DNA of 64,000 bases from an uncultured delta proteobacterium. Lineage in GTDB: Bacteria > Desulfobacterota > Binatia > Binatales > Binataceae. A program made the translations under genes and the position numbers. Below, one piece after another: positions 7,607-26,109 of this stretch. Position 1 is the stretch's first letter. Each line of letters begins with the position of its first letter. Location: the NCBI GenBank assembly GCA_963699705.1, contig CAVOUW010000003.1, positions 2,161,776 to 2,225,775 of the forward strand. The letters run 5' to 3'. Below the pieces are notes generated by a model. The model searched no databases and was not told the origin of the DNA. It saw only the letters and a program-made list of their open reading frames with translations.

Positions 7607-8773
7607 TTAACCCGAGGACTTGGGCTGATATGTGATCTTCAAAGAGGCGCGCTCGCGATGCTCCTCCAGTGCCAGCTCGATTAACCGATCGATCAGACGC
7701 TGCAACGGCAAGCCCGACGCCTCCCACAGCTTCGGATACATGCTGATGGAAGTGAAGCCGGGAATGGTATTCACCTCGTTGACGTAGATCTCGCGCAAGT
7801 CGCGACTCGCCAGAAAATCGACGCGCGACATTCCGCGCAGCGACAATGCCTTGAACGCCGCCACCGCCATTGCGCGCAACTTCTTGGCCTTGGCGGGCGG
7901 CAAGTCGGCAGGAATTTTCGTCGAGGAACCTTCGGGATCGACGTACTTCGATTCGTAATCGTAAAAATCGTGCGCACCCTTGACCAGCACCTCGCCGGGA
8001 ATCGACGCCTCGGGACGATCGTTGCCGAGCACGGCGACCTCGAACTCACGACCCTCGCATGAGGCCTCGATCAGCGCCTTGCGATCGTACTGAAAAGCGT
8101 CGTCGAGCGCGGCGTTTAGATCGGCGGCGCGCTTCACCTTGCTGATTCCGATCGACGATCCGAGCGCGTTGGGCTTGACGAACACAGGATACCCAAGTTT
8201 GCGCGCGAGCTTTGCCCCAAGCTGAGGAGTGTCGCGGTAATCGGCGCGCTCGATCGCAAAATATTTGACGACCGCCACGCCCGCATCGCGGAGCAGTCGC
8301 TTCTGCGCATCCTTGTCCATCCCAATCGCGGAGCCGAGCACGCCCGCACCCACGTACGCGATCCCCGCGAGCTCGAGCAGCCCCTGCACCGTGCCGTCCT
8401 CGCCGTAAGTCCCGTGCAACACCGGGAACACCACGTCGACGCCCGGAATCGCATCTTGTGCGCGCGTCACCTCGCCGCGCGCACCGTTGGCCGGCGTCGC
8501 GACCAGCGCCTGCCCCTCCGGATGCGGCAGCAGTGTCACCTGCGTACCTCCCGCACTAAGCGCAGCAAGATGAGGCGCCTTCTCCGCGAGCAGTTTCAGC
8601 GCATTGCGTTCGAGATACCATCGCCCGTCGCGCCCAATCCCAATCGGAACAATCTCGTAGCGCGCCGGATCCATCGCCGACATCACAGTCAGCGCCGATC
8701 GCAGCGAGATCTCATGCTCGCCCGATCGCCCGCCGAACAGCACGCCAACCCTGAGCCGTTTGTTTTCCGCCAT
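7607..8773 (-). CDS. ddl: D-alanine--D-alanine ligase
   Basis: MAENKRLRVGVLFGGRSGEHEISLRS...EVNTIPGFTSISMYPKLWEASGL. The ATG at 8771..8773 is the 23rd codon of the ORF. The upstream extension runs into an intergenic repeat. Confidence 0.85.
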   Translation of the reverse strand: MAENKRLRVGVLFGGRSGEHEISLRSALTVMSAMDPARYEIVPIGIGRDGRWYLERNALKLLAEKAPHLAALSAGGTQVTLLPHPEGQALVATPANGARGEVTRAQDAIPGVDVVFPVLHGTYGEDGTVQGLLELAGIAYVGAGVLGSAIGMDKDAQKRLLRDAGVAVVKYFAIERADYRDTPQLGAKLARKLGYPVFVKPNALGSSIGISKVKRAADLNAALDDAFQYDRKALIEASCEGREFEVAVLGNDRPEASIPGEVLVKGAHDFYDYESKYVDPEGSSTKIPADLPPAKAKKLRAMAVAAFKALSLRGMSRVDFLASRDLREIYVNEVNTIPGFTSISMYPKLWEASGLPLQRLIDRLIELALEEHRERASLKITYQPKSSG

Positions 8774-8816
8774 GTGCCCGCCCCGCCCCGAGAAGGAACT
8801 TGGGAACTGATTGTAT

Positions 8817-8873
8817 GTGAAACCCGCGGTGGGTTTCACGCTTCCTTCGGCAGGGGTGACCCCTGCACCCAGT
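8817..8873 (+). repeat. intergenic double-hairpin repeat, family 1, full copy A
   Basis: GTGAAACCCGCGGTGGGTTTCACGCTTCCTTCGGCAGGGGTGACCCCTGCACCCAGT. Hairpin 1 is GAAACCC/GGGTTTC and hairpin 2 is CAGGGGT/ACCCCTG. Near-identical copies are at 10729, 12186(rc) and 43377(rc). Confidence 0.8.
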
Positions 8874-19195: not shown

Positions 19196-19969
19196 CTAAA
19201 CGCCGACGATATTGTAGCCCACGTCCACGTAAAGCGTCTGGCCGGTGACGCCGCTGGAAAAATCGCTCAGCACCGCGGCCGCCATCTTGCCGACTTCTTC
19301 GATTTTCATCGCGCGCCGCAACGGCGATCGCTCCTCGACCTCGTGTTGCATCGAATGGAAGTCTCGAATCGCCGACGACGACAGCGTCCGCGCAGGGCCG
19401 GCGCTGAGCGCGTTGACACGAATATTCTTGGCCCCGAGATCCACCGACAGGTAGCGTACACAGGCTTCCAGAGCCGCCTTCGCCACTCCCATCATGTTGT
19501 AATTGGGGATCGCGCGGACCGCGCCGAGATAGCTGAGCGTCAGGATCGATCCGCCGCCGCGCGCTTCCATCAACGGTTCCGCCGCGCGCGCGAGCGCGAC
19601 CAGCGAGTAGGCGCTGATCTCGAGCGACTTTTTGAAATTCTCGCGAGTCACGGTCAGAAATCGATCGCGCAGATCTTCGCGCTCCGCAAATGCGACCGCA
19701 TGCACCAGCAGATCGAGTCCGTCCCATTTTTTCTTGAGCGCCGCGAACACCGACGCGATTTGCGTATCGTCGTTGACGTCGAGCTCGCCGATCACGTCCG
19801 CTTCGATCTGCGCCGCCAGCGGACGCACGCGCTTTTCGAGGATCTCGCCCTGGTAGGTCATCGCGATCTCGGCGCCTTCCGCCGCGAGCGTTTGTGCGAT
19901 CGACCATGCCAGGCTCTTGTCGTTCGCGACGCCGACGACCAACGCTCGTTTGCCTTCTACTATGCCCAT
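19196..19969 (-). CDS. fabI: enoyl-[acyl-carrier-protein] reductase (NADH)
   Basis: MGIVEGKRALVVGVANDKSLAWSIAQTLAAEGAEIAMTYQGE...YNMMGVAKAALEA...RVNALSAGP. Confidence 0.9.
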   Translation of the reverse strand: MGIVEGKRALVVGVANDKSLAWSIAQTLAAEGAEIAMTYQGEILEKRVRPLAAQIEADVIGELDVNDDTQIASVFAALKKKWDGLDLLVHAVAFAEREDLRDRFLTVTRENFKKSLEISAYSLVALARAAEPLMEARGGGSILTLSYLGAVRAIPNYNMMGVAKAALEACVRYLSVDLGAKNIRVNALSAGPARTLSSSAIRDFHSMQHEVEERSPLRRAMKIEEVGKMAAAVLSDFSSGVTGQTLYVDVGYNIVGV

Positions 19970-20010
19970 GGAAGTTCCTTGTCTGTGGAGGTGCGCGCGG
20001 GCCCGGATCT

Positions 20011-20784
20011 CTACAGCGTGATCTTCATACCGTCATAGCCCATTTCGAGCGCGATCTCATCCTCGCGGCTCAGCACTTCGCGTCCGAGATGTGTCAGCAC
20101 CATCCGCCGCACCTTGAACTTGTCGCGATTCTTCGCCAGCAGCGGATAGTTGAGATGAAACTTCAGATGCGCGCTCTCGAAGTACGTGCATTCGCACAGG
20201 AACAGATCGGCGCCGTCGCTGAGCTCCACCAGTTCATCATTCCATCCGCTGTCGCCCGAGAAAACTATCGATTTGCCGCCGCCGTCGACTCTCAACGACA
20301 GCGAAATGTCCGGCTTGGTATGCGGACTGCGAATCGCGCTCACCTTGAACTTGCCCAGTCGCGTCGATTTACCCGGCTCGAGCACCACGAACTTCAGTTT
20401 ATGTTTGATCTTGTCGAGCTCGAAATGCGGGAACATCGTGCGCATCAGCGACCACGTCCGCTCCTCGAGCTTGGCCGGCCCCGCGATGGTCAGCACCTTT
20501 TTGCGGCGCGTCTCCCACATGTAGTCGAGGATCAGAAACGGCAGGCCGCCAAAATGATCGCCGTGCAGATGACTGATCAGCAGCAAATCGAAACTGTCGG
20601 GCGCGACCCTGTTGCTCTTGAGCGCCTGCATCAAGCACGGTCCCGCTTCCATCAGGATTCGTCCCGCGGGCGCGTCGATCAGGTAGCCAGATTGTGAACG
20701 GCCAAAACTCGCGAACGCATCTCCGGTGCCCAACAGAGTGACGGTCGCCTTCGCACCATTCGATGTCGTAGGATTCTGATTCAT
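20011..20784 (-). CDS. MBL-fold metallo-hydrolase (RNase Z / beta-lactamase-like)
   Basis: TLLGTGDAFASFGRSQSGYLI...LLISHLHGDHFGGLPFLI...VFSGDSGWNDELVE. Confidence 0.75.
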   Translation of the reverse strand: MNQNPTTSNGAKATVTLLGTGDAFASFGRSQSGYLIDAPAGRILMEAGPCLMQALKSNRVAPDSFDLLLISHLHGDHFGGLPFLILDYMWETRRKKVLTIAGPAKLEERTWSLMRTMFPHFELDKIKHKLKFVVLEPGKSTRLGKFKVSAIRSPHTKPDISLSLRVDGGGKSIVFSGDSGWNDELVELSDGADLFLCECTYFESAHLKFHLNYPLLAKNRDKFKVRRMVLTHLGREVLSREDEIALEMGYDGMKITL

Positions 20785-20841
20785 TCAGGCGAGCTATGCT
20801 ATTATCATCAAGTGAGCCGCGCAAACGAGGGAGCGCCCGCG

Positions 20842-21789
20842 ATGAAACAGGTAAAAATCGGCGTCGGATTCGGACTTTGGCGGCTTGGGATGCCCTCGGC
20901 GGAAACCATCGCGCGCGTTGCGGAGCACGCCGAAGACTGGGGCCTCGATTCGTTCTGGCTCTCCGATCATTTGCTCGCACCGTCGCCGGAACTCGACGTC
21001 GTCGCGACCTTGTCGCTGCTGGCCTCGCGCACTTCGCGCATGAAACTCGGCCCGAGCGTACTGCTGCTCAACCTGCGTCACCCGCTGATGGTTGCGAAAT
21101 CGTTCGCGTCGCTCGACTACCTGTCGAACGGCCGCATGGTAATGGCGGTCGGCACCGGCGCCAATCTCAATGACTATGCGGCGTGCGGAATTCCAGTCGA
21201 GGGCCGCGGCAAGCGTCTCGACGAGGGCATCGAAGTACTGCGCACCGTTTGGCGCGATCGCGTCGCAAGCTATCATGGTCGCTTCTTCAACTTTGACAAC
21301 GTCACGATTGAGCCGCGTCCCGCCGCGCGCACCAACAATGATTTCGGCACGATGGATATCTGGGTCGGCGGCCGCTCCGACGCGGCGCTGAAACGCGCGG
21401 CGCGCCTGGCCGACGGCTTCTTCGCGTCGTTCCAGACTCCCGACGAATTCGGCGCGAGCATGGCGAAGATTCGCGACTATGCGGCCGGCTACGGTCGCGC
21501 CAACGCACACATCGAATCCGGATTGATCTTATTGTGCCGCATCTCGACGTCGCGTGCGCGCGCACTCGAAGAAATGCGCCCGATGCTGACCGCGATGGGC
21601 CGCGGCGCGGAGGCTTACCTCGAGCGCACGGTTTACGGCTCGCCCGACGACGTCATCGCGCGCCTCAGTGAATATGTTGCGAAGGGTCTCGACAAGTTTG
21701 TACTGTGGCCAATCGCGGCACCCGATGCGTGGCCGAAGCAAATCGAACTGGTCGGCCGCGAAATTGCCTCGCATTACGCCGCGGCCTGA
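20842..21789 (+). CDS. LLM-class (luciferase-like) flavin/F420-dependent oxidoreductase
   Basis: MKQVKIGVGFGLWRLGMPSAETIARVAEHAEDWGLDSFWLSDHL...GRMVMAVGTG. ATG 20842 lies inside the ORF that opens at GTG 20812. Confidence 0.8.
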   Translation: MKQVKIGVGFGLWRLGMPSAETIARVAEHAEDWGLDSFWLSDHLLAPSPELDVVATLSLLASRTSRMKLGPSVLLLNLRHPLMVAKSFASLDYLSNGRMVMAVGTGANLNDYAACGIPVEGRGKRLDEGIEVLRTVWRDRVASYHGRFFNFDNVTIEPRPAARTNNDFGTMDIWVGGRSDAALKRAARLADGFFASFQTPDEFGASMAKIRDYAAGYGRANAHIESGLILLCRISTSRARALEEMRPMLTAMGRGAEAYLERTVYGSPDDVIARLSEYVAKGLDKFVLWPIAAPDAWPKQIELVGREIASHYAAA

Positions 21790-22363
21790 AAATTTCGCGC
21801 GGACCGCAGTTGTCATCGCGCTCGCATTTGCGATCGCCGTTTTTTCAGGATGCGCCAAGTCTCCGCCAGTCACACGGCCGCCGAGCATCTATGCCAGCGC
21901 CGAGGATGTCGAGATAAACTTTCGCGACCGCACTTTCGTGCTCGGTGACAACAATGAAATCGCCGAAGTGCGCCCGCTCCGTTGGCGTAAGGACCAATTC
22001 CTCAAACTGCCATTCTGGTTCGGCGTCAACATTCTCGTGCCCGGCGTTAACGCGCCGAAGGAAGGCGACTTCTACGTCATCAGCGAAGCGACGCTCGAAA
22101 AGCCGCTCGACGCACCCGGCGAATGGATGATCGAAGCGGGCAGCTCGCTCGTCAAGCAGGAGACGGTCTTCGTCACGACCCGCACGCAATATACGGGTAC
22201 TGGAAAAATTCTGCCGACCATCGTGCAATACATGGGCAAACGCGAATTCAAACGCTCCGACGGCAAGACCGTGCAAATCCCCGTGCTGCGCGAGGTCTCG
22301 CTGCCGATGAAATGGACGCTCGGCGGCCATATCCCCGCCGACTACGCGAGATATCACACATGA
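21764..22363 (+). CDS. lipoprotein of unknown function (paralog 1)
   Basis: Proposed TTG start at 21764 gives LPRITPRPENFARTAVVIALAFAIAVFSGC (lipobox FSGC) and overlaps the LLM gene 3' end. It shares motifs with the next gene (WRKDQFLKLPFWFGVN, TRTQYTGTGKILPTIV, VPVLREVSLPMKW). Confidence 0.5.
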   Translation: MPRITPRPENFARTAVVIALAFAIAVFSGCAKSPPVTRPPSIYASAEDVEINFRDRTFVLGDNNEIAEVRPLRWRKDQFLKLPFWFGVNILVPGVNAPKEGDFYVISEATLEKPLDAPGEWMIEAGSSLVKQETVFVTTRTQYTGTGKILPTIVQYMGKREFKRSDGKTVQIPVLREVSLPMKWTLGGHIPADYARYHT

Positions 22364-23010
22364 CTCGCGCCAGAACCTACGTCGCCGCGATTGCAATGAC
22401 GCTGATGGCGCTCGCAATCGGATGCACTCCCGACAAAGCGCTCGATTTCGGCCCGGTCGGCGAAATCACCACGCCGCCCGAAGATCAGTTGAGCCGCGAC
22501 ATCATGCGCGATTTCGCCGGCCGCGATTTCAATCTCGACAACAACGATCACGAGGCGCACATCAGCCTCACCGATTGGAAGCCCGGCCGCCGCATCATCA
22601 TGCCGTACTGGCTCGGCGTGAACCCGCTCTACCCCGGGTTTTTGCGCCCAACCGTCGGACATCTATATGTGATGAGCCAATCGACGCTAGTCCGCCCACT
22701 CGGTAACCGCCCGCTCGGCAACAACCAAAACGAATACCTGATTCGCGCCGGCTCGAAACTCTTCAAGAGCGACACCGTCTTCGAAGCCACGCACACGCAC
22801 TACACCGACACCGGCGGAATGCTCCCGACGGTAGTCCGCTTCACCGGCACGCGAATAATCACCGTCCCTAAGGACGCCCCCGCCACAGGAACAATCACAG
22901 AAAAGGTCCCGGTGTTACGCGAAGTGTCGATGCCAATGCACACGGCGTCGGATCAGGATTTATCCGGCTACGCGAAGTTCGAAGCGGTCGCTGCTACTCG
23001 ATCGCCATAG
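22359..23010 (+). CDS. lipoprotein of unknown function (paralog 2)
   Basis: MTRARTYVAAIAMTLMALAIGC (lipobox AIGC). It overlaps paralog 1 by ATGA (22359..22363). Paralogous motifs: WKPGRRIIMPYWLGVN, THTHYTDTGGMLPTVV, VPVLREVSMPMHT. Confidence 0.6.
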
Positions 23011-23096
23011 CGCCTAAAGATTTTTCCTTCGTTTCTCAGATTATCCAAAATGAAGGAAAATAGTCCGTTCAACGAATTATCGGAGGAACTTGCCGC

Positions 23097-23519
<423 letters not shown>

Positions 23520-23524
23520 CGCCC

Positions 23525-25525
23525 TTACGTCTCTTCGGATTCCTGCAGCGTTGCGGTTTGCAGCAACTCTGCCGGGACGTCTTCGAGGAAGCGCGACACG
23601 CGGCCCATCACGAAGCCGAAGTTGCGGTCGAACATGTGTATCGGATACGACAGGTACAGCTCGTCGCGCGCCCGCGTGCTCGCGACGTACATCAGCCGCC
23701 GCTCCTCTTCGATCTCATCGTCGCCGACACTTTGCGGTCCCGGGAACCGTCCATCCGCGGCCCAGATCAGGAACACCACTTTCCACTCGAGTCCCTTGGC
23801 CGAATGAATCGTCGTCAGCGTCATGTGCTCATCTTCCGAATCGGTCGCGAGCACCCCGTCGAGCGAATCATTCGGCGGCTCGAGCGCCATATCCGCCAGC
23901 ATCTGCTCGAGGCTCTTGTAGCGCTCCGTGAGATTCTGAAAATGTTCGAGGTCGCGTTCGCGCTTGGGATAATCGTCGGCGTACGCCTCGCGCATCACGG
24001 GCAGATAGTATTCGAGCGTCATCGCGATCTGCTCGGGCGGCCGCTTTTCGCCCGCGCGCAATTCCGCCAGCAGCGTGCCCAGTCGCTTGAGGCCGCTCTC
24101 AGAGCCACCGCGAGCCTTTTCAGCGAATTTCGCTACCGCTGCCGCTGGATCGTCGGATGCAACCAGCATGTCGATCGTCCTCTCCGCCGTGCGATGGCCG
24201 ATACCCTTCACCAGCGTCAGCACGCGCAGCCATGACACCGCGTCCGCAGGATTCGCGATCACTCGCAGATGCGCCAGCACATCCTTGATATGCGCGGTTT
24301 CTATAAATTTGAATCCGCCACGCTTGATGAACGGGATGTCGCGCCGCTGCAGCTCGAGTTCCAGGTCGAAAGAATGAAAGCTCGATCGAAACAGCACCGC
24401 GATTTCGTTGAGCTCGACGCCTTCTTCGCGCAACTCGAGAATCCGTTGCGCGACGAATCGCGATTGCATGTGCTCGTCCTGCGCGCGCACCAGGAACGGC
24501 CGAAAGCCGCCCTCGCGCTGCGTGAACAGCGCCTTGGTGTATTTTTCACCGGCGCGCGAGATCACGTCATTTGCGACGTCGAGGATCCCCTGGATCGAGC
24601 GGTAGTTCTCTTCGAGCTTCACGATCTTCGCGCCCGGAAAAATCGTGGGGAAGTCCATGATGTTGCGGAAGTTGGCGCCGCGAAACGAGTAGATCGACTG
24701 CGCATCGTCGCCGACCGCCATCACGTTGCGATGATTCATCGCGAGCAGCCGCACCAGGTCGGCCTGTATCAGGTTGGTGTCCTGGTACTCATCGATCATG
24801 ATGTAGCGATAGCTGTCCGACAGCCGGCGGCGCACGTTCTCGTATTGCTCGAGCAACTCCGCCAGCCGATACAGCAGGTCGTCATAGTCGAGCAGCGCGC
24901 GCTCGCGTTTGTAGCTCTCGTAATTTTTCGCGAGCTCGAGAATTTCCGTCTCATGCTCACCGAGATGCGGAAAATCGATCTCGATCTCCTCTTCGAGCGC
25001 GCGCCGTTTGTTGCGCGCCATGCTGATCGTCTCGGCAATCGTGCTCTTCTTCGGAAACCGGCGCTCGCGCGACCCGAGTCCCATCCGCGTCCGGATCAGG
25101 TTGATCACGTCTTCCATGTCCGATCGATCAAGGATGGTGAAGTTGGGCTTGAGGCCCATCGGCGCGCCATGCCGCCGCAGCACGTTGTTCGCGAATGAAT
25201 GAAACGTCCCGCCCGCGACCGCGCCCGCACGATCTCCAACCAGTTGTTCTGCGCGACGCAACATCTCTTGCGCCGCACGCCGCGTGAACGTCAGCAGCAG
25301 AATCGCGCCCGGCGGCACGCCGCTCTCGATCAAGCGTGCGACCCGATAGATCAGCGTGCGAGTCTTGCCCGATCCCGCCCCCGCAACCACCAGTAGCGGC
25401 CCGTCGCGATGCGTCACGGCCGCAAGCTGCGCGGGATTCAGCAGCTCGGCGTACTTGATTTTGAAGTTGCGCTCGTCGGCCGGCAGCGCCGGCTTTTCGC
25501 GCAGGTAAATTACCTTGTCGGCCAC
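23525..25525 (-). CDS. UvrD/PcrA/Rep-family ATP-dependent DNA helicase
   Basis: ELLNPAQLAAVTHRDGPLLVVAGAGSGKTRTLIYRVARLI...helicase motifs through to the C-terminus. The in-frame GTG at 25523..25525 is preferred. The ORF's first ATG (25639) would overlap the upstream BON gene by 75 nt. Confidence 0.75.
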   Translation of the reverse strand: MADKVIYLREKPALPADERNFKIKYAELLNPAQLAAVTHRDGPLLVVAGAGSGKTRTLIYRVARLIESGVPPGAILLLTFTRRAAQEMLRRAEQLVGDRAGAVAGGTFHSFANNVLRRHGAPMGLKPNFTILDRSDMEDVINLIRTRMGLGSRERRFPKKSTIAETISMARNKRRALEEEIEIDFPHLGEHETEILELAKNYESYKRERALLDYDDLLYRLAELLEQYENVRRRLSDSYRYIMIDEYQDTNLIQADLVRLLAMNHRNVMAVGDDAQSIYSFRGANFRNIMDFPTIFPGAKIVKLEENYRSIQGILDVANDVISRAGEKYTKALFTQREGGFRPFLVRAQDEHMQSRFVAQRILELREEGVELNEIAVLFRSSFHSFDLELELQRRDIPFIKRGGFKFIETAHIKDVLAHLRVIANPADAVSWLRVLTLVKGIGHRTAERTIDMLVASDDPAAAVAKFAEKARGGSESGLKRLGTLLAELRAGEKRPPEQIAMTLEYYLPVMREAYADDYPKRERDLEHFQNLTERYKSLEQMLADMALEPPNDSLDGVLATDSEDEHMTLTTIHSAKGLEWKVVFLIWAADGRFPGPQSVGDDEIEEERRLMYVASTRARDELYLSYPIHMFDRNFGFVMGRVSRFLEDVPAELLQTATLQESEET

Positions 25526-25563: not shown

Positions 25564-26016
25564 CTATGGCAGCATCGGCCCGCTGCCCGACGGCAGTTGC
25601 CCGCCGTTTTTGTAGATGCCTTGCATCGTCTTGTTCCACAGTTGGTCGGGACTGTTGGGCGATTGCGCACTCGATGCGGCCGCTGCCGATCCCTGAGGCG
25701 CGCGCAAATCCTCGACGTGCGGATCGAGCAGAATCTGGTCAACCAAATTGACGCTCGGATCGTTCAAGTACGCATTCGCGATTCGTTCCGCATCGTTGCG
25801 TCCAAACTGCGTCGCCACAAAGCCGGTGAGTATCAATTGTTTACTGCCACCCGGCGACGTCGAGAACTGCGCGGTGACCATCGGCAGCTCGTTCATGTGA
25901 AGATACTTCGTGAGCGCATCGCTGGTCCCCTGATCGATCACGTAATCCTGCCCCCGCGCGACACCGCACAGACTCATAACGATGATCACCGACATGAATG
26001 CTTTCACTCGTCGCAT
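25564..26016 (-). CDS. secreted BON-domain protein
   Basis: A signal peptide (MRRVKAFMSVIIVMSLCGVARG), then ELPMVTAQFSTSPGGSKQLILTGFVATQFGRNDAERIANAYL (BON-like), then a Ser/Ala/Pro-rich tail. The start is chosen at ATG 26014..26016. Confidence 0.5.
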   Translation of the reverse strand: MRRVKAFMSVIIVMSLCGVARGQDYVIDQGTSDALTKYLHMNELPMVTAQFSTSPGGSKQLILTGFVATQFGRNDAERIANAYLNDPSVNLVDQILLDPHVEDLRAPQGSAAAASSAQSPNSPDQLWNKTMQGIYKNGGQLPSGSGPMLP

Positions 26017-26109
26017 CACCATCCTCGACGATACCTGACGCGCTCGAAGAAAAGAAAACGCGGGCGTCATCTTCAACGCCCGCGCCTCTTTGTGTTTGCG
26101 ATTATCGGT

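What the first reader, a model, noticed from the sequence alone, without database searches (positions are those of the whole stretch)
21764..23010. Translationally coupled pair of paralogous lipoproteins of unknown family
These are two about 200-aa lipoproteins (lipoboxes FSGC and AIGC) at about 35-40% identity. Their shared motifs (W[RK]…[FI][LM]…P[FY]W[FL]GVN, T[RH]TxYT[GD]TG…LPT[IV]V, VPVLREVS[LM]PM) match no family I can name. The first overlaps the LLM oxidoreductase 3' end and the second overlaps the first by ATGA. They are candidates for a two-component envelope module.
Basis: seen in the sequence. Interest (0 to 1): 0.5.

Follow-up and report, generated by a model that had tools for sequence, protein, structure and literature searches.

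The report
Paired OB-fold lipoproteins of Binataceae
Two overlapping neighbouring genes encode related membrane-anchored lipoproteins that belong to no described family, occur only in the uncultured soil bacteria Binataceae and always come as a pair; they probably form a two-part envelope binding unit, but their function is unknown.

Summary
ORF1 (21764-22363, TTG start, 199 aa, lipobox VFSG|C30) and ORF2 (22360-23010, ATG start, 216 aa, lipobox LAIG|C22) are paralogs (35% identity, E=2e-34). They overlap by ATGA, and ORF1 overlaps the 3' end of an F420-type LLM oxidoreductase gene by 26 nt.

Pfam, NCBIfam, PADLOC, PHROGs and PDB sequences give no match. A profile search of 1.84 billion representative proteins found 44 hits, mostly fragments, so no wider superfamily is detectable by sequence. 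Named relatives are all Candidatus Binatus or Binataceae.

In 78 species-level genome loci the two genes are adjacent in the same order in all but one truncated locus. The NTGA overlap is kept in 74 of 81 loci. dN/dS is 0.11-0.25. The LLM gene is absent from 19 of 74 loci, so it is dispensable.

Best reading: a lineage-specific, probably heterodimeric, membrane-anchored periplasmic binding module. Ligand and heterodimer are inferred, not shown. It is a real new family on a known fold, of moderate interest.

The parts
21764..22363 (+). lipo1 gene: 199-aa lipoprotein precursor, TTG start, TGA stop
   Evidence: Translation. 358 homologs. A TTG at the same position relative to the LLM stop occurs in 18 loci, including the window; other loci have TTG at -29/-32 or ATG at -17. 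dN/dS 0.14-0.25.
21764..21853 (+). lipo1 signal peptide and lipobox (LPRITPRPENFARTAVVIALAFAIAVFSG-C30)
   Evidence: The Cys is invariant in the 40-sequence alignment. A PROSITE-type lipobox is found in 84 of 120 database homologs; nearly all failures inspected are mis-called starts that still contain the Cys.
22360..23010 (+). lipo2 gene: 216-aa lipoprotein precursor, ATG start, TAG stop
   Evidence: Translation. 304 homologs. dN/dS 0.11-0.23.
22360..22425 (+). lipo2 signal peptide and lipobox (MTRARTYVAAIAMTLMALAIG-C22)
   Evidence: Invariant Cys. Lipobox found in 107 of 120 homologs. Residues +2 to +4 are mostly TPD, with no Asp at +2 among the variants listed.
22360..22363 (+). ATGA: lipo2 start codon overlapping the lipo1 stop codon (translational coupling)
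   Evidence: An NTGA overlap is present in 74 of 81 loci.
21764..21789 (+). 26-nt overlap of the lipo1 start with the 3' end of the LLM oxidoreductase gene
   Evidence: The same 26-nt overlap is seen in L001. An overlapping start (TTG -26/-29/-32 or ATG -17) is found in most LLM-containing loci.
20812..21789 (+). Upstream gene for a TIGR03619-family F420-dependent LLM-class oxidoreductase; probably co-transcribed with the pair but dispensable
   Evidence: Pfam PF00296, E=1.9e-56. TIGR03619 scores 190 bits against a cutoff of 167. Present in 55 and absent in 19 of 74 loci.
22010..22030 (+). lipo1 motif PFWFGVN (P83-N89), start of a conserved loop with reduced model confidence
   Evidence: P, W, G and N are invariant in both paralogs. 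Residues 88-93 have pLDDT below 50.
22603..22623 (+). lipo2 motif PYWLGVN (P82-N88), the same conserved loop
   Evidence: Ten-residue pLDDT block means for residues 81-100 are 76 and 69, against about 90 or more in the blocks on either side.
22280..22309 (+). lipo1 motif PVLREVSLPM (P173-M182)
   Evidence: P, V, L, R, E, S, P and M are invariant in both paralogs. The motif lies at the end of the last long beta strand.
22909..22938 (+). lipo2 motif PVLREVSMPM (P184-M193)

Best explanation
The region encodes two tandem paralogous lipoprotein precursors. Each has a Sec-type signal peptide ending in a lipobox, so each should be exported, lipidated on the invariant Cys and cleaved by signal peptidase II. 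This is shown at the sequence level only.

Neither protein has Asp at +2. By the E. coli sorting rule both would go to the inner leaflet of the outer membrane; that step is inferred, because the rule is untested in this phylum.

After a short Pro-rich tether, each mature protein (about 170-195 aa) folds into the same all-beta domain: one helix and three short strands, followed by an OB-fold-like barrel. This rests on predictions of moderate to good confidence.

The genes are always adjacent, always in the same order, 1:1 and joined by a 4-nt stop/start overlap. They are therefore most likely made in equal amounts and assemble into a pseudo-symmetric heterodimer descended from an ancestral homodimer (inferred).

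Both paralogs keep the same invariant residues. These include an aromatic and polar set (W, Y, N, R, E, S) in a conserved loop that the monomer models place with low confidence. This points to a shared binding surface for an envelope ligand or partner protein, for example a glycan or peptidoglycan, rather than to catalysis or metal or haem binding (inferred, weak).

The module is a vertically inherited core feature of Binataceae. It does not depend on the upstream F420-type oxidoreductase gene.
For: - Paralogy: 35% identity, E=2e-34.
- Export and lipidation signals: the lipobox Cys is invariant in 40 aligned members of both orthogroups. PROSITE-type lipoboxes occur in 107 of 120 and 84 of 120 database homologs, and nearly all failures inspected are start mis-calls.
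- Pairing: lipo1 followed by lipo2 in every locus but the truncated L081, across 78 species-level genome loci. NTGA overlap in 74 of 81 loci.
- Selection: dN/dS 0.11-0.25. Mean protein distance is lower than for the neighbouring MBL-fold enzyme (0.33 and 0.26 against 0.44).
- New family: no Pfam, NCBIfam, PADLOC, PHROGs or PDB sequence match. Only 44 hits among 1.84 billion representative proteins.
- Independence from LLM: absent in 19 of 74 loci, with deletion scars.
- Native composition: GC about 0.6.
Against: - No interaction between the two proteins was tested.
- The mirror-tree signal (partial r 0.40, p about 0.0015) is no stronger than between the unrelated neighbours MBL and UvrD (0.64), so it does not support specific co-evolution.
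- Gene neighbours are housekeeping genes (FabI-like reductase, GloB-like hydrolase, MBL hydrolase, YjbQ, UvrD) and give no functional clue.
- Outer-membrane localisation rests on an E. coli rule.
Confidence: 0.55

Rival explanations
1. The two lipoproteins are independent, subfunctionalised or partly redundant paralogs. They do not form a complex. The 4-nt overlap simply reflects compact operon organisation after a tandem duplication.
For: Four-nucleotide overlaps are common in compact bacterial operons (general knowledge). The mirror-tree signal is not distinctive. Each paralog has its own conserved specific segments: the lipo2 N-terminal ALDFGPxGEIxTPP, a TVPKDAPATGTITEK insertion and a C-terminal tail. 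A basal lipo1-like member (P0247) sits on a short contig with no overlapping lipo2 start at its stop codon.
Against: Gene order, 1:1 stoichiometry and the overlap are kept across the species-level genome loci examined, down to 55-60% identity. No genome locus shows loss of only one copy. The P0247 contig ends 48 nt after the stop, so its context is unknown.
Confidence: 0.25
2. The pair is functionally tied to the upstream F420-dependent LLM oxidoreductase. For example, it could be an envelope part of a pathway whose cytoplasmic step the LLM enzyme catalyses.
For: The lipo1 start overlaps the LLM 3' end in most LLM-containing loci, which implies co-transcription and possibly coupled translation. 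LLM is present in 55 of 74 loci.
Against: LLM is absent in 19 of 74 loci while the pair stays intact. One clade shows a clean in-frame deletion that fuses the LLM leader to the lipo1 signal peptide, and L056 keeps only a 41-aa LLM remnant. The LLM protein has no signal peptide by inspection of its N-terminus.
Confidence: 0.08
3. The proteins are periplasmic enzymes, for example hydrolases acting on envelope polymers, that use the conserved Ser, Lys, Arg and Glu residues.
For: Both paralogs share invariant polar residues: S45, N88, S106, S132, Y148, R165, R187, E188, S190 and Y204, plus a near-invariant K136 in AGS-x-L-x-K. Conservation exceeds that of a neighbouring enzyme.
Against: No sequence or fold similarity to any enzyme family was found. 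OB-fold domains usually bind ligands (general knowledge). Many invariant residues are Pro, Gly or hydrophobic, which is typical of structural constraint.
Confidence: 0.1
4. The proteins are cytoplasmic nucleic-acid-binding OB-fold proteins that work with the adjacent UvrD-type helicase, and the 'signal peptides' are misread.
Against: A hydrophobic N-terminus with an invariant lipobox Cys occurs in both orthogroups. The one divergent member without a Cys has a type-I-like signal peptide instead. UvrD is convergently transcribed, and in several loci no UvrD match lies within about 6 kb. Similarity to nucleic-acid binders is only the generic OB topology, at 3-14% identity.
Confidence: 0.02

Closest known systems
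BOF family / YgiW (PDB 1nnx; Pfam PF04076, accession from memory), periplasmic bacterial OB-fold stress proteins
   Different: No sequence match at Pfam E<=10 in any of 40 members. BOF proteins are about 110-130 aa, soluble and have type-I signal peptides (own knowledge). The proteins here are about 200-aa lipoproteins with an extra N-terminal helix and three strands, and they occur as tandem paralogs.
DUF3299 protein PA4066 (PDB 4hsp) and the Klebsiella 'putative nucleic acid-binding lipoprotein' (PDB 3f1z)
   Different: No sequence similarity. The proteins differ in size, and the alignment covers only about 90 residues. No paired-paralog architecture is known for these families.
CcmE haem chaperone (PDB 1sr3)
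   Different: CcmE is anchored by a transmembrane helix and needs a conserved haem-binding His (own knowledge). No His or Cys is invariant in the mature part here, and there is no Pfam match.
Small heterodimerising OB-fold subunits (RPA14/RPA32, Stn1/Ten1, Tetrahymena p45/p19, RMI1/RMI2)
   Different: They are eukaryotic or archaeal nucleic-acid-associated proteins that dimerise through C-terminal helices (own knowledge), which are absent here. Identity is 3-13%. The resemblance is analogy at the level of fold and pairing, not membership.
LptM/YifL small lipoprotein (the name JGI gives a few lipo1 homologs)
   Same: An N-terminal lipobox region.
   Different: The only Pfam signal is PF13627 at E=1.5 in 1 of 40 members, and that family is named as a short conserved region. 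LptM is a very small lipoprotein (own knowledge), whereas these are about 200 aa with a folded domain. I regard the JGI name as a lipobox artefact.

Membership tests
Bacterial lipoproteins (signal peptidase II substrates) | N-terminal signal peptide with a positively charged n-region, a hydrophobic h-region and a lipobox [LVI][ASTVI][GAS]-C, with the Cys at position 15-35 | tested here: met
   ORF1 has VFSG-C30 and ORF2 has LAIG-C22. The Cys is invariant in 40 aligned members. The PROSITE-type pattern is found in 107 of 120 and 84 of 120 homologs, and nearly all failures inspected are start mis-calls.
Bacterial lipoproteins (signal peptidase II substrates) | Actual diacylglyceryl modification and Lsp cleavage | not testable with these tools
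   This needs lipid labelling or globomycin sensitivity in vivo.
OB-fold superfold | Five-stranded closed or semi-closed beta barrel with OB topology, recognisable by structure comparison | tested here: inconclusive
BOF / YgiW family | Match to the family profile | tested here: not met
   No Pfam hit at E<=10 for any of 40 members.
DUF3299 | Match to the family profile | tested here: not met
   No Pfam hit. A profile search of PDB sequences gave 0 hits at E<=10.
CcmE | CcmE profile match and a conserved haem-binding histidine | tested here: not met
   No Pfam or NCBIfam hit. No invariant His in the alignment.
LptM (YifL) | Match to the LptM conserved region above threshold | tested here: not met
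   PF13627 matches at E=1.5 in 1 of 40 members.
Anti-phage defence or phage protein families | Match to PADLOC or PHROGs profiles | tested here: not met
   No hits for either protein.

The most novel reading that the evidence does not exclude
The pair is a Binataceae-specific heterodimeric outer-membrane lipoprotein complex with an essential envelope role. For example, it could be a lineage-specific tether or an accessory subunit of an outer-membrane biogenesis machine, standing in for a canonical lipoprotein that these bacteria lack. If so, it would be a new type of envelope component built from paired OB-fold domains.
Probability: 0.12. Interest if true: 0.55.

Novelty: new variant of a known kind. 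Interest (0 to 1): 0.3.

Why it matters
Binataceae are abundant, uncultured soil and peat bacteria whose cell envelope has not been studied.

This gene pair is a strongly conserved marker of the lineage. It is more conserved than a neighbouring enzyme, it occurs as a pair in the 78 species-level genome loci retrieved, and relatives were found only in Binataceae-type genomes and metagenome fragments.

It defines a new protein family that could be added to Pfam, and it is a clean example of a tandem duplication fixed as a translationally coupled pair. If the two proteins do form an envelope complex, it would be a lineage-specific piece of diderm envelope architecture.

At present it is a well-supported 'conserved hypothetical' pair, not a new mechanism.

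Tried and rejected
- **Sequence libraries.** Pfam, NCBIfam, PADLOC and PHROGs scans of the two proteins gave nothing meaningful. A Pfam scan of all 40 alignment members also gave nothing. A profile search of PDB sequences returned 0 hits at E<=10.
- **Structure libraries.** Foldseek against PDB had a best E of 0.2. The AFDB libraries (afdb50, afdb_sample) were not available on the machine, so the most informative fold search could not be run.
- **Exhaustive profile search.** The search of 1.84 billion representatives found no distant relatives beyond the clade.
- **Literature.** No paper on Binatia or Binataceae, or on OB-fold lipoprotein heterodimers, deals with this family.
- **Co-evolution.** The mirror-tree test gave a positive signal, but no stronger than between unrelated neighbours, so I treat it as uninformative.
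- **Regulatory scans.** The promoter and terminator scan of 19900-23700 found nothing inside or flanking the pair beyond chance level. There are no tRNA genes and no Rfam hits in the window.
- **Cytoplasmic DNA-binding role with UvrD.** Considered and rejected because of the conserved signal peptides and lipobox.
- **Metal or haem binding (CusF- or CcmE-like).** Considered and rejected because no His, Cys or Met cluster is invariant in the mature part.
- **The long 295-aa ORF 22123-23010.** Rejected as a GC-rich frame extension of lipo2. Its upstream ATGs at -241 and -52 recur across loci. At least the -52 one lies within conserved lipo1 codons (the K-W of PMKW), by my reading.

Full report
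**1. What is in the sequence**

ORF1 starts at TTG 21764 and ends at TGA 22361-22363 (199 aa). ORF2 starts at ATG 22360 and ends at TAG 23008-23010 (216 aa). The ORF2 start codon and the ORF1 stop codon share the tetranucleotide ATGA at 22360-22363.

ORF1 begins 26 nt before the stop of the upstream gene (20812-21789). That gene encodes a luciferase-like, F420-dependent oxidoreductase: PF00296 at E=1.9e-56, and TIGR03619 at 190 bits against a cutoff of 167.

Both N-termini are textbook lipoprotein signal peptides. ORF1 reads LPRITPRPENFARTAVVIALAFAIAVFSG-C30 and ORF2 reads MTRARTYVAAIAMTLMALAIG-C22.

BLASTP of the two proteins gives 35% identity over 192 columns with E=2e-34. They are paralogs beyond doubt.

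**2. They are real, constrained genes**

Word-indexed searches found 304 homolog clusters for ORF2 and 358 for ORF1, at 67-93% identity among the best 120 listed for each. None has a Pfam domain. Every informative source name is Candidatus Binatus or Binataceae, apart from one protein labelled Candidatus Acidoferrum.

An alignment of 40 members separates two orthogroups cleanly. It shows 33 columns invariant across both, including the lipobox Cys.

Against 12 related loci, dN/dS is 0.14-0.25 for lipo1 and 0.11-0.23 for lipo2. Mean protein distances (0.33 and 0.26) are lower than for the neighbouring MBL-fold hydrolase (0.44). Local GC content (about 0.6) matches the surroundings.

**3. Distribution and architecture**

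A scan of one genome per GTDB species returned 78 distinct loci. All are MAGs labelled Binatus or Binataceae, or carry generic or probably mis-binned labels such as 'uncultured delta proteobacterium'.

A tblastn survey of these loci shows lipo1 immediately followed by lipo2 in every locus except the truncated L081. The stop/start overlap NTGA is present in 74 of 81 loci. Most of the remaining seven are loci where my lipo2 lipobox pattern did not match.

A hidden-Markov profile of both paralogs was searched exhaustively against 1.84 billion representative proteins. It found only 44 hits, and most are fragments of the same two orthogroups. No larger superfamily is detectable by sequence.

One divergent member, P0247, branches at the base of lipo1 (51% identity to lipo1, 38% to lipo2). 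It carries a type-I-like signal peptide (…VALAFA/DD) instead of a lipobox. It sits on an 877-nt metagenome contig, so its context is unknown.

**4. Relation to the neighbours**

The order in close relatives is: MBL-fold hydrolase (minus strand), LLM, lipo1, lipo2, YjbQ, UvrD (minus strand).

In most LLM-containing loci the lipo1 start overlaps the LLM 3' end. The start is TTG at -26, -29 or -32 in many of the closer, Binatus-like loci and mostly ATG at -17 in more distant Binataceae. Where LLM exists, the three genes therefore behave as one tightly packed operon.

LLM is nevertheless missing in 19 of 74 loci.
- In nine of these, apparently one clade, lipo1 begins with the LLM leader MRANxGAPPMKQVK joined directly to the lipo1 hydrophobic region. 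This is the signature of a clean in-frame deletion of the LLM gene.
- Locus L056 retains a 41-aa ORF made of the LLM N- and C-termini.

The lipoprotein pair, not the LLM-lipoprotein trio, is thus the conserved unit. YjbQ is adjacent only in close relatives. UvrD is convergent, and several loci show no UvrD match within about 6 kb. The remaining neighbours are housekeeping genes and give no functional clue.

**5. Family and fold**

Pfam, NCBIfam, PADLOC and PHROGs give no meaningful match for either protein, and Pfam gives none for any of the 40 aligned members. A family profile finds nothing among PDB sequences at E<=10.

AlphaFold2 models built from the family alignments are of moderate to good confidence: lipo2 has pLDDT 83.5 and pTM 0.77, and lipo1 has pLDDT 78.9 and pTM 0.71. 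They share one topology:
- the signal-peptide helix;
- a low-confidence Pro-rich tether;
- one short helix and three short strands;
- a long conserved loop;
- about eight further strands.

The domain is therefore best described as an OB-fold-like barrel with an N-terminal alpha/beta extension. It has no specific characterised relative.

**6. How it most likely works**

*Shown at the sequence level.* Both proteins have export and lipidation signals.

*Inferred from the E. coli +2 rule.* Both would be sorted to the outer membrane. Residues after the Cys are AKS or AKP in lipo1 and TPD in lipo2, with no Asp at +2 among the variants listed.

*Inferred from architecture.* Invariant adjacency, fixed order, 1:1 copy number and the conserved 4-nt overlap are what one expects of subunits made in equal amounts. 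The simplest history is an ancestral homodimeric lipoprotein whose gene duplicated in tandem and became an obligate heterodimer.

*Inferred from conservation.* Both paralogs keep the same invariant residues (W84, N88, S106, S132, Y148, R165, R187, E188, S190, Y204 in lipo2 numbering). The most conserved motif, P-x-W-x-G-x-N, opens a loop that the monomer models place with reduced confidence: ten-residue block means of 76 and 69 in lipo2, and below 50 for residues 88-93 in lipo1. That pattern fits a partner- or ligand-binding loop.

The lipo2-specific N-terminal segment ALDFGPxGEIxTPP is likewise highly conserved but modelled with low confidence.

No His, Cys or Met cluster is invariant, which argues against CcmE- or CusF-like haem or metal binding. 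No enzyme family resembles the domain.

I therefore favour a membrane-anchored, heterodimeric periplasmic binding or scaffold module for an envelope ligand or protein partner. I put about 0.9 confidence on 'new family of paired exported lipoproteins' and about 0.4 on 'heterodimeric binding module'.

A mirror-tree test gave a positive partial correlation between the two proteins (r=0.40, p about 0.0015). The unrelated neighbours MBL and UvrD correlate more strongly (0.64), so I do not count it as evidence.

**7. Comparison with the known, and verdict**

The pair works like other exported OB-fold proteins but is a member of none of the families tested: BOF/YgiW, DUF3299, CcmE and LptM all fail the profile test. 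The JGI label 'predicted small lipoprotein YifL' on a few homologs appears to reflect only the lipobox region.

No paper in the searchable library deals with this family.

The finding is a real, new, lineage-restricted protein family on a known fold, in an unusual fixed paired-paralog arrangement. It is worth a family entry and a multimer prediction. Nothing yet indicates a new mechanism.

Interest is 0.3. Novelty: new variant of a known kind.

Noticed in passing
window 20812-21853; loci L012, L016, L018, L021, L022, L025, L027, L032, L033 (region between the MBL gene and lipo1); L056 5075-5500: The LLM oxidoreductase gene has been lost repeatedly. In nine related genomes lipo1 starts with the LLM N-terminal leader (MRANxGAPPMKQVK) fused in frame to its own hydrophobic region. 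This is a clean deletion from about LLM codon 17, counted from the window's GTG start, to about lipo1 codon 14. L056 keeps a 41-aa ORF made of the LLM N- and C-termini.
   Followed up: partly
window 22696-22740 (lipo2 residues about 113-127): The window's lipo2 reads RPLGNRPLGNNQNEY where orthologs read RPL[SGT]NNEY. It has an extra, partly repeated RPLGN-like stretch in the loop with the lowest model confidence (pLDDT below 50 at residues 118-120).
   Followed up: no
window 23022-23060: A 13-nt inverted repeat (TTTTCCTTCGTTT / AAATGAAGGAAAA, 92% complementary, 13-nt spacer) lies 12 nt after the lipo2 stop, in an AT-rich 86-nt spacer before yjbQ. In locus L001 the spacer is only 24 nt, so the hairpin is not conserved there. 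It could be a terminator or an operator.
   Followed up: partly
L082 236-829 (protein P0247); also fragment P0276: A basal lipo1-like homolog has a type-I-like signal peptide (…VALAFA/DD) and no lipobox Cys. It sits on a short contig of visibly lower GC content and has no overlapping downstream start. It may represent a sister lineage or a non-lipidated form of the family.
   Followed up: partly
L071 6933-8868: A 484-aa ORF follows the intact lipo2. After it comes a 5'-truncated, nearly identical second copy of lipo2 (8422-8868) that lacks the signal peptide. This looks like an insertion with a segmental duplication, or an assembly artefact.
   Followed up: no
proteins P0124 and P0125 (lipo1 homologs; their clusters hold 21 and 2 member sequences): The lipobox reads FSE-C, with Glu at position -1 where Gly, Ala or Ser is expected. 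This is an unusual variant or a recurrent sequencing or assembly difference.
   Followed up: no
window 25564-26076 (minus strand): A 170-aa ORF with an N-terminal hydrophobic segment has no Pfam, NCBIfam or PADLOC match. A 157-aa gene with no Pfam hit is called at the same position between uvrD and pstS in L001. It may be another lineage-specific exported protein.
   Followed up: no
window 20011-20784 (minus strand): The MBL-fold hydrolase gene is divergently transcribed from the LLM/lipoprotein operon and is present in nearly every related locus. It has sub-threshold similarity to RNase Z and to cyclic-nucleotide-degrading phosphodiesterases, including anti-Pycsar Apyc1 (all well below the curated cutoffs). 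Its start lies only 27 nt from the LLM start.
   Followed up: partly
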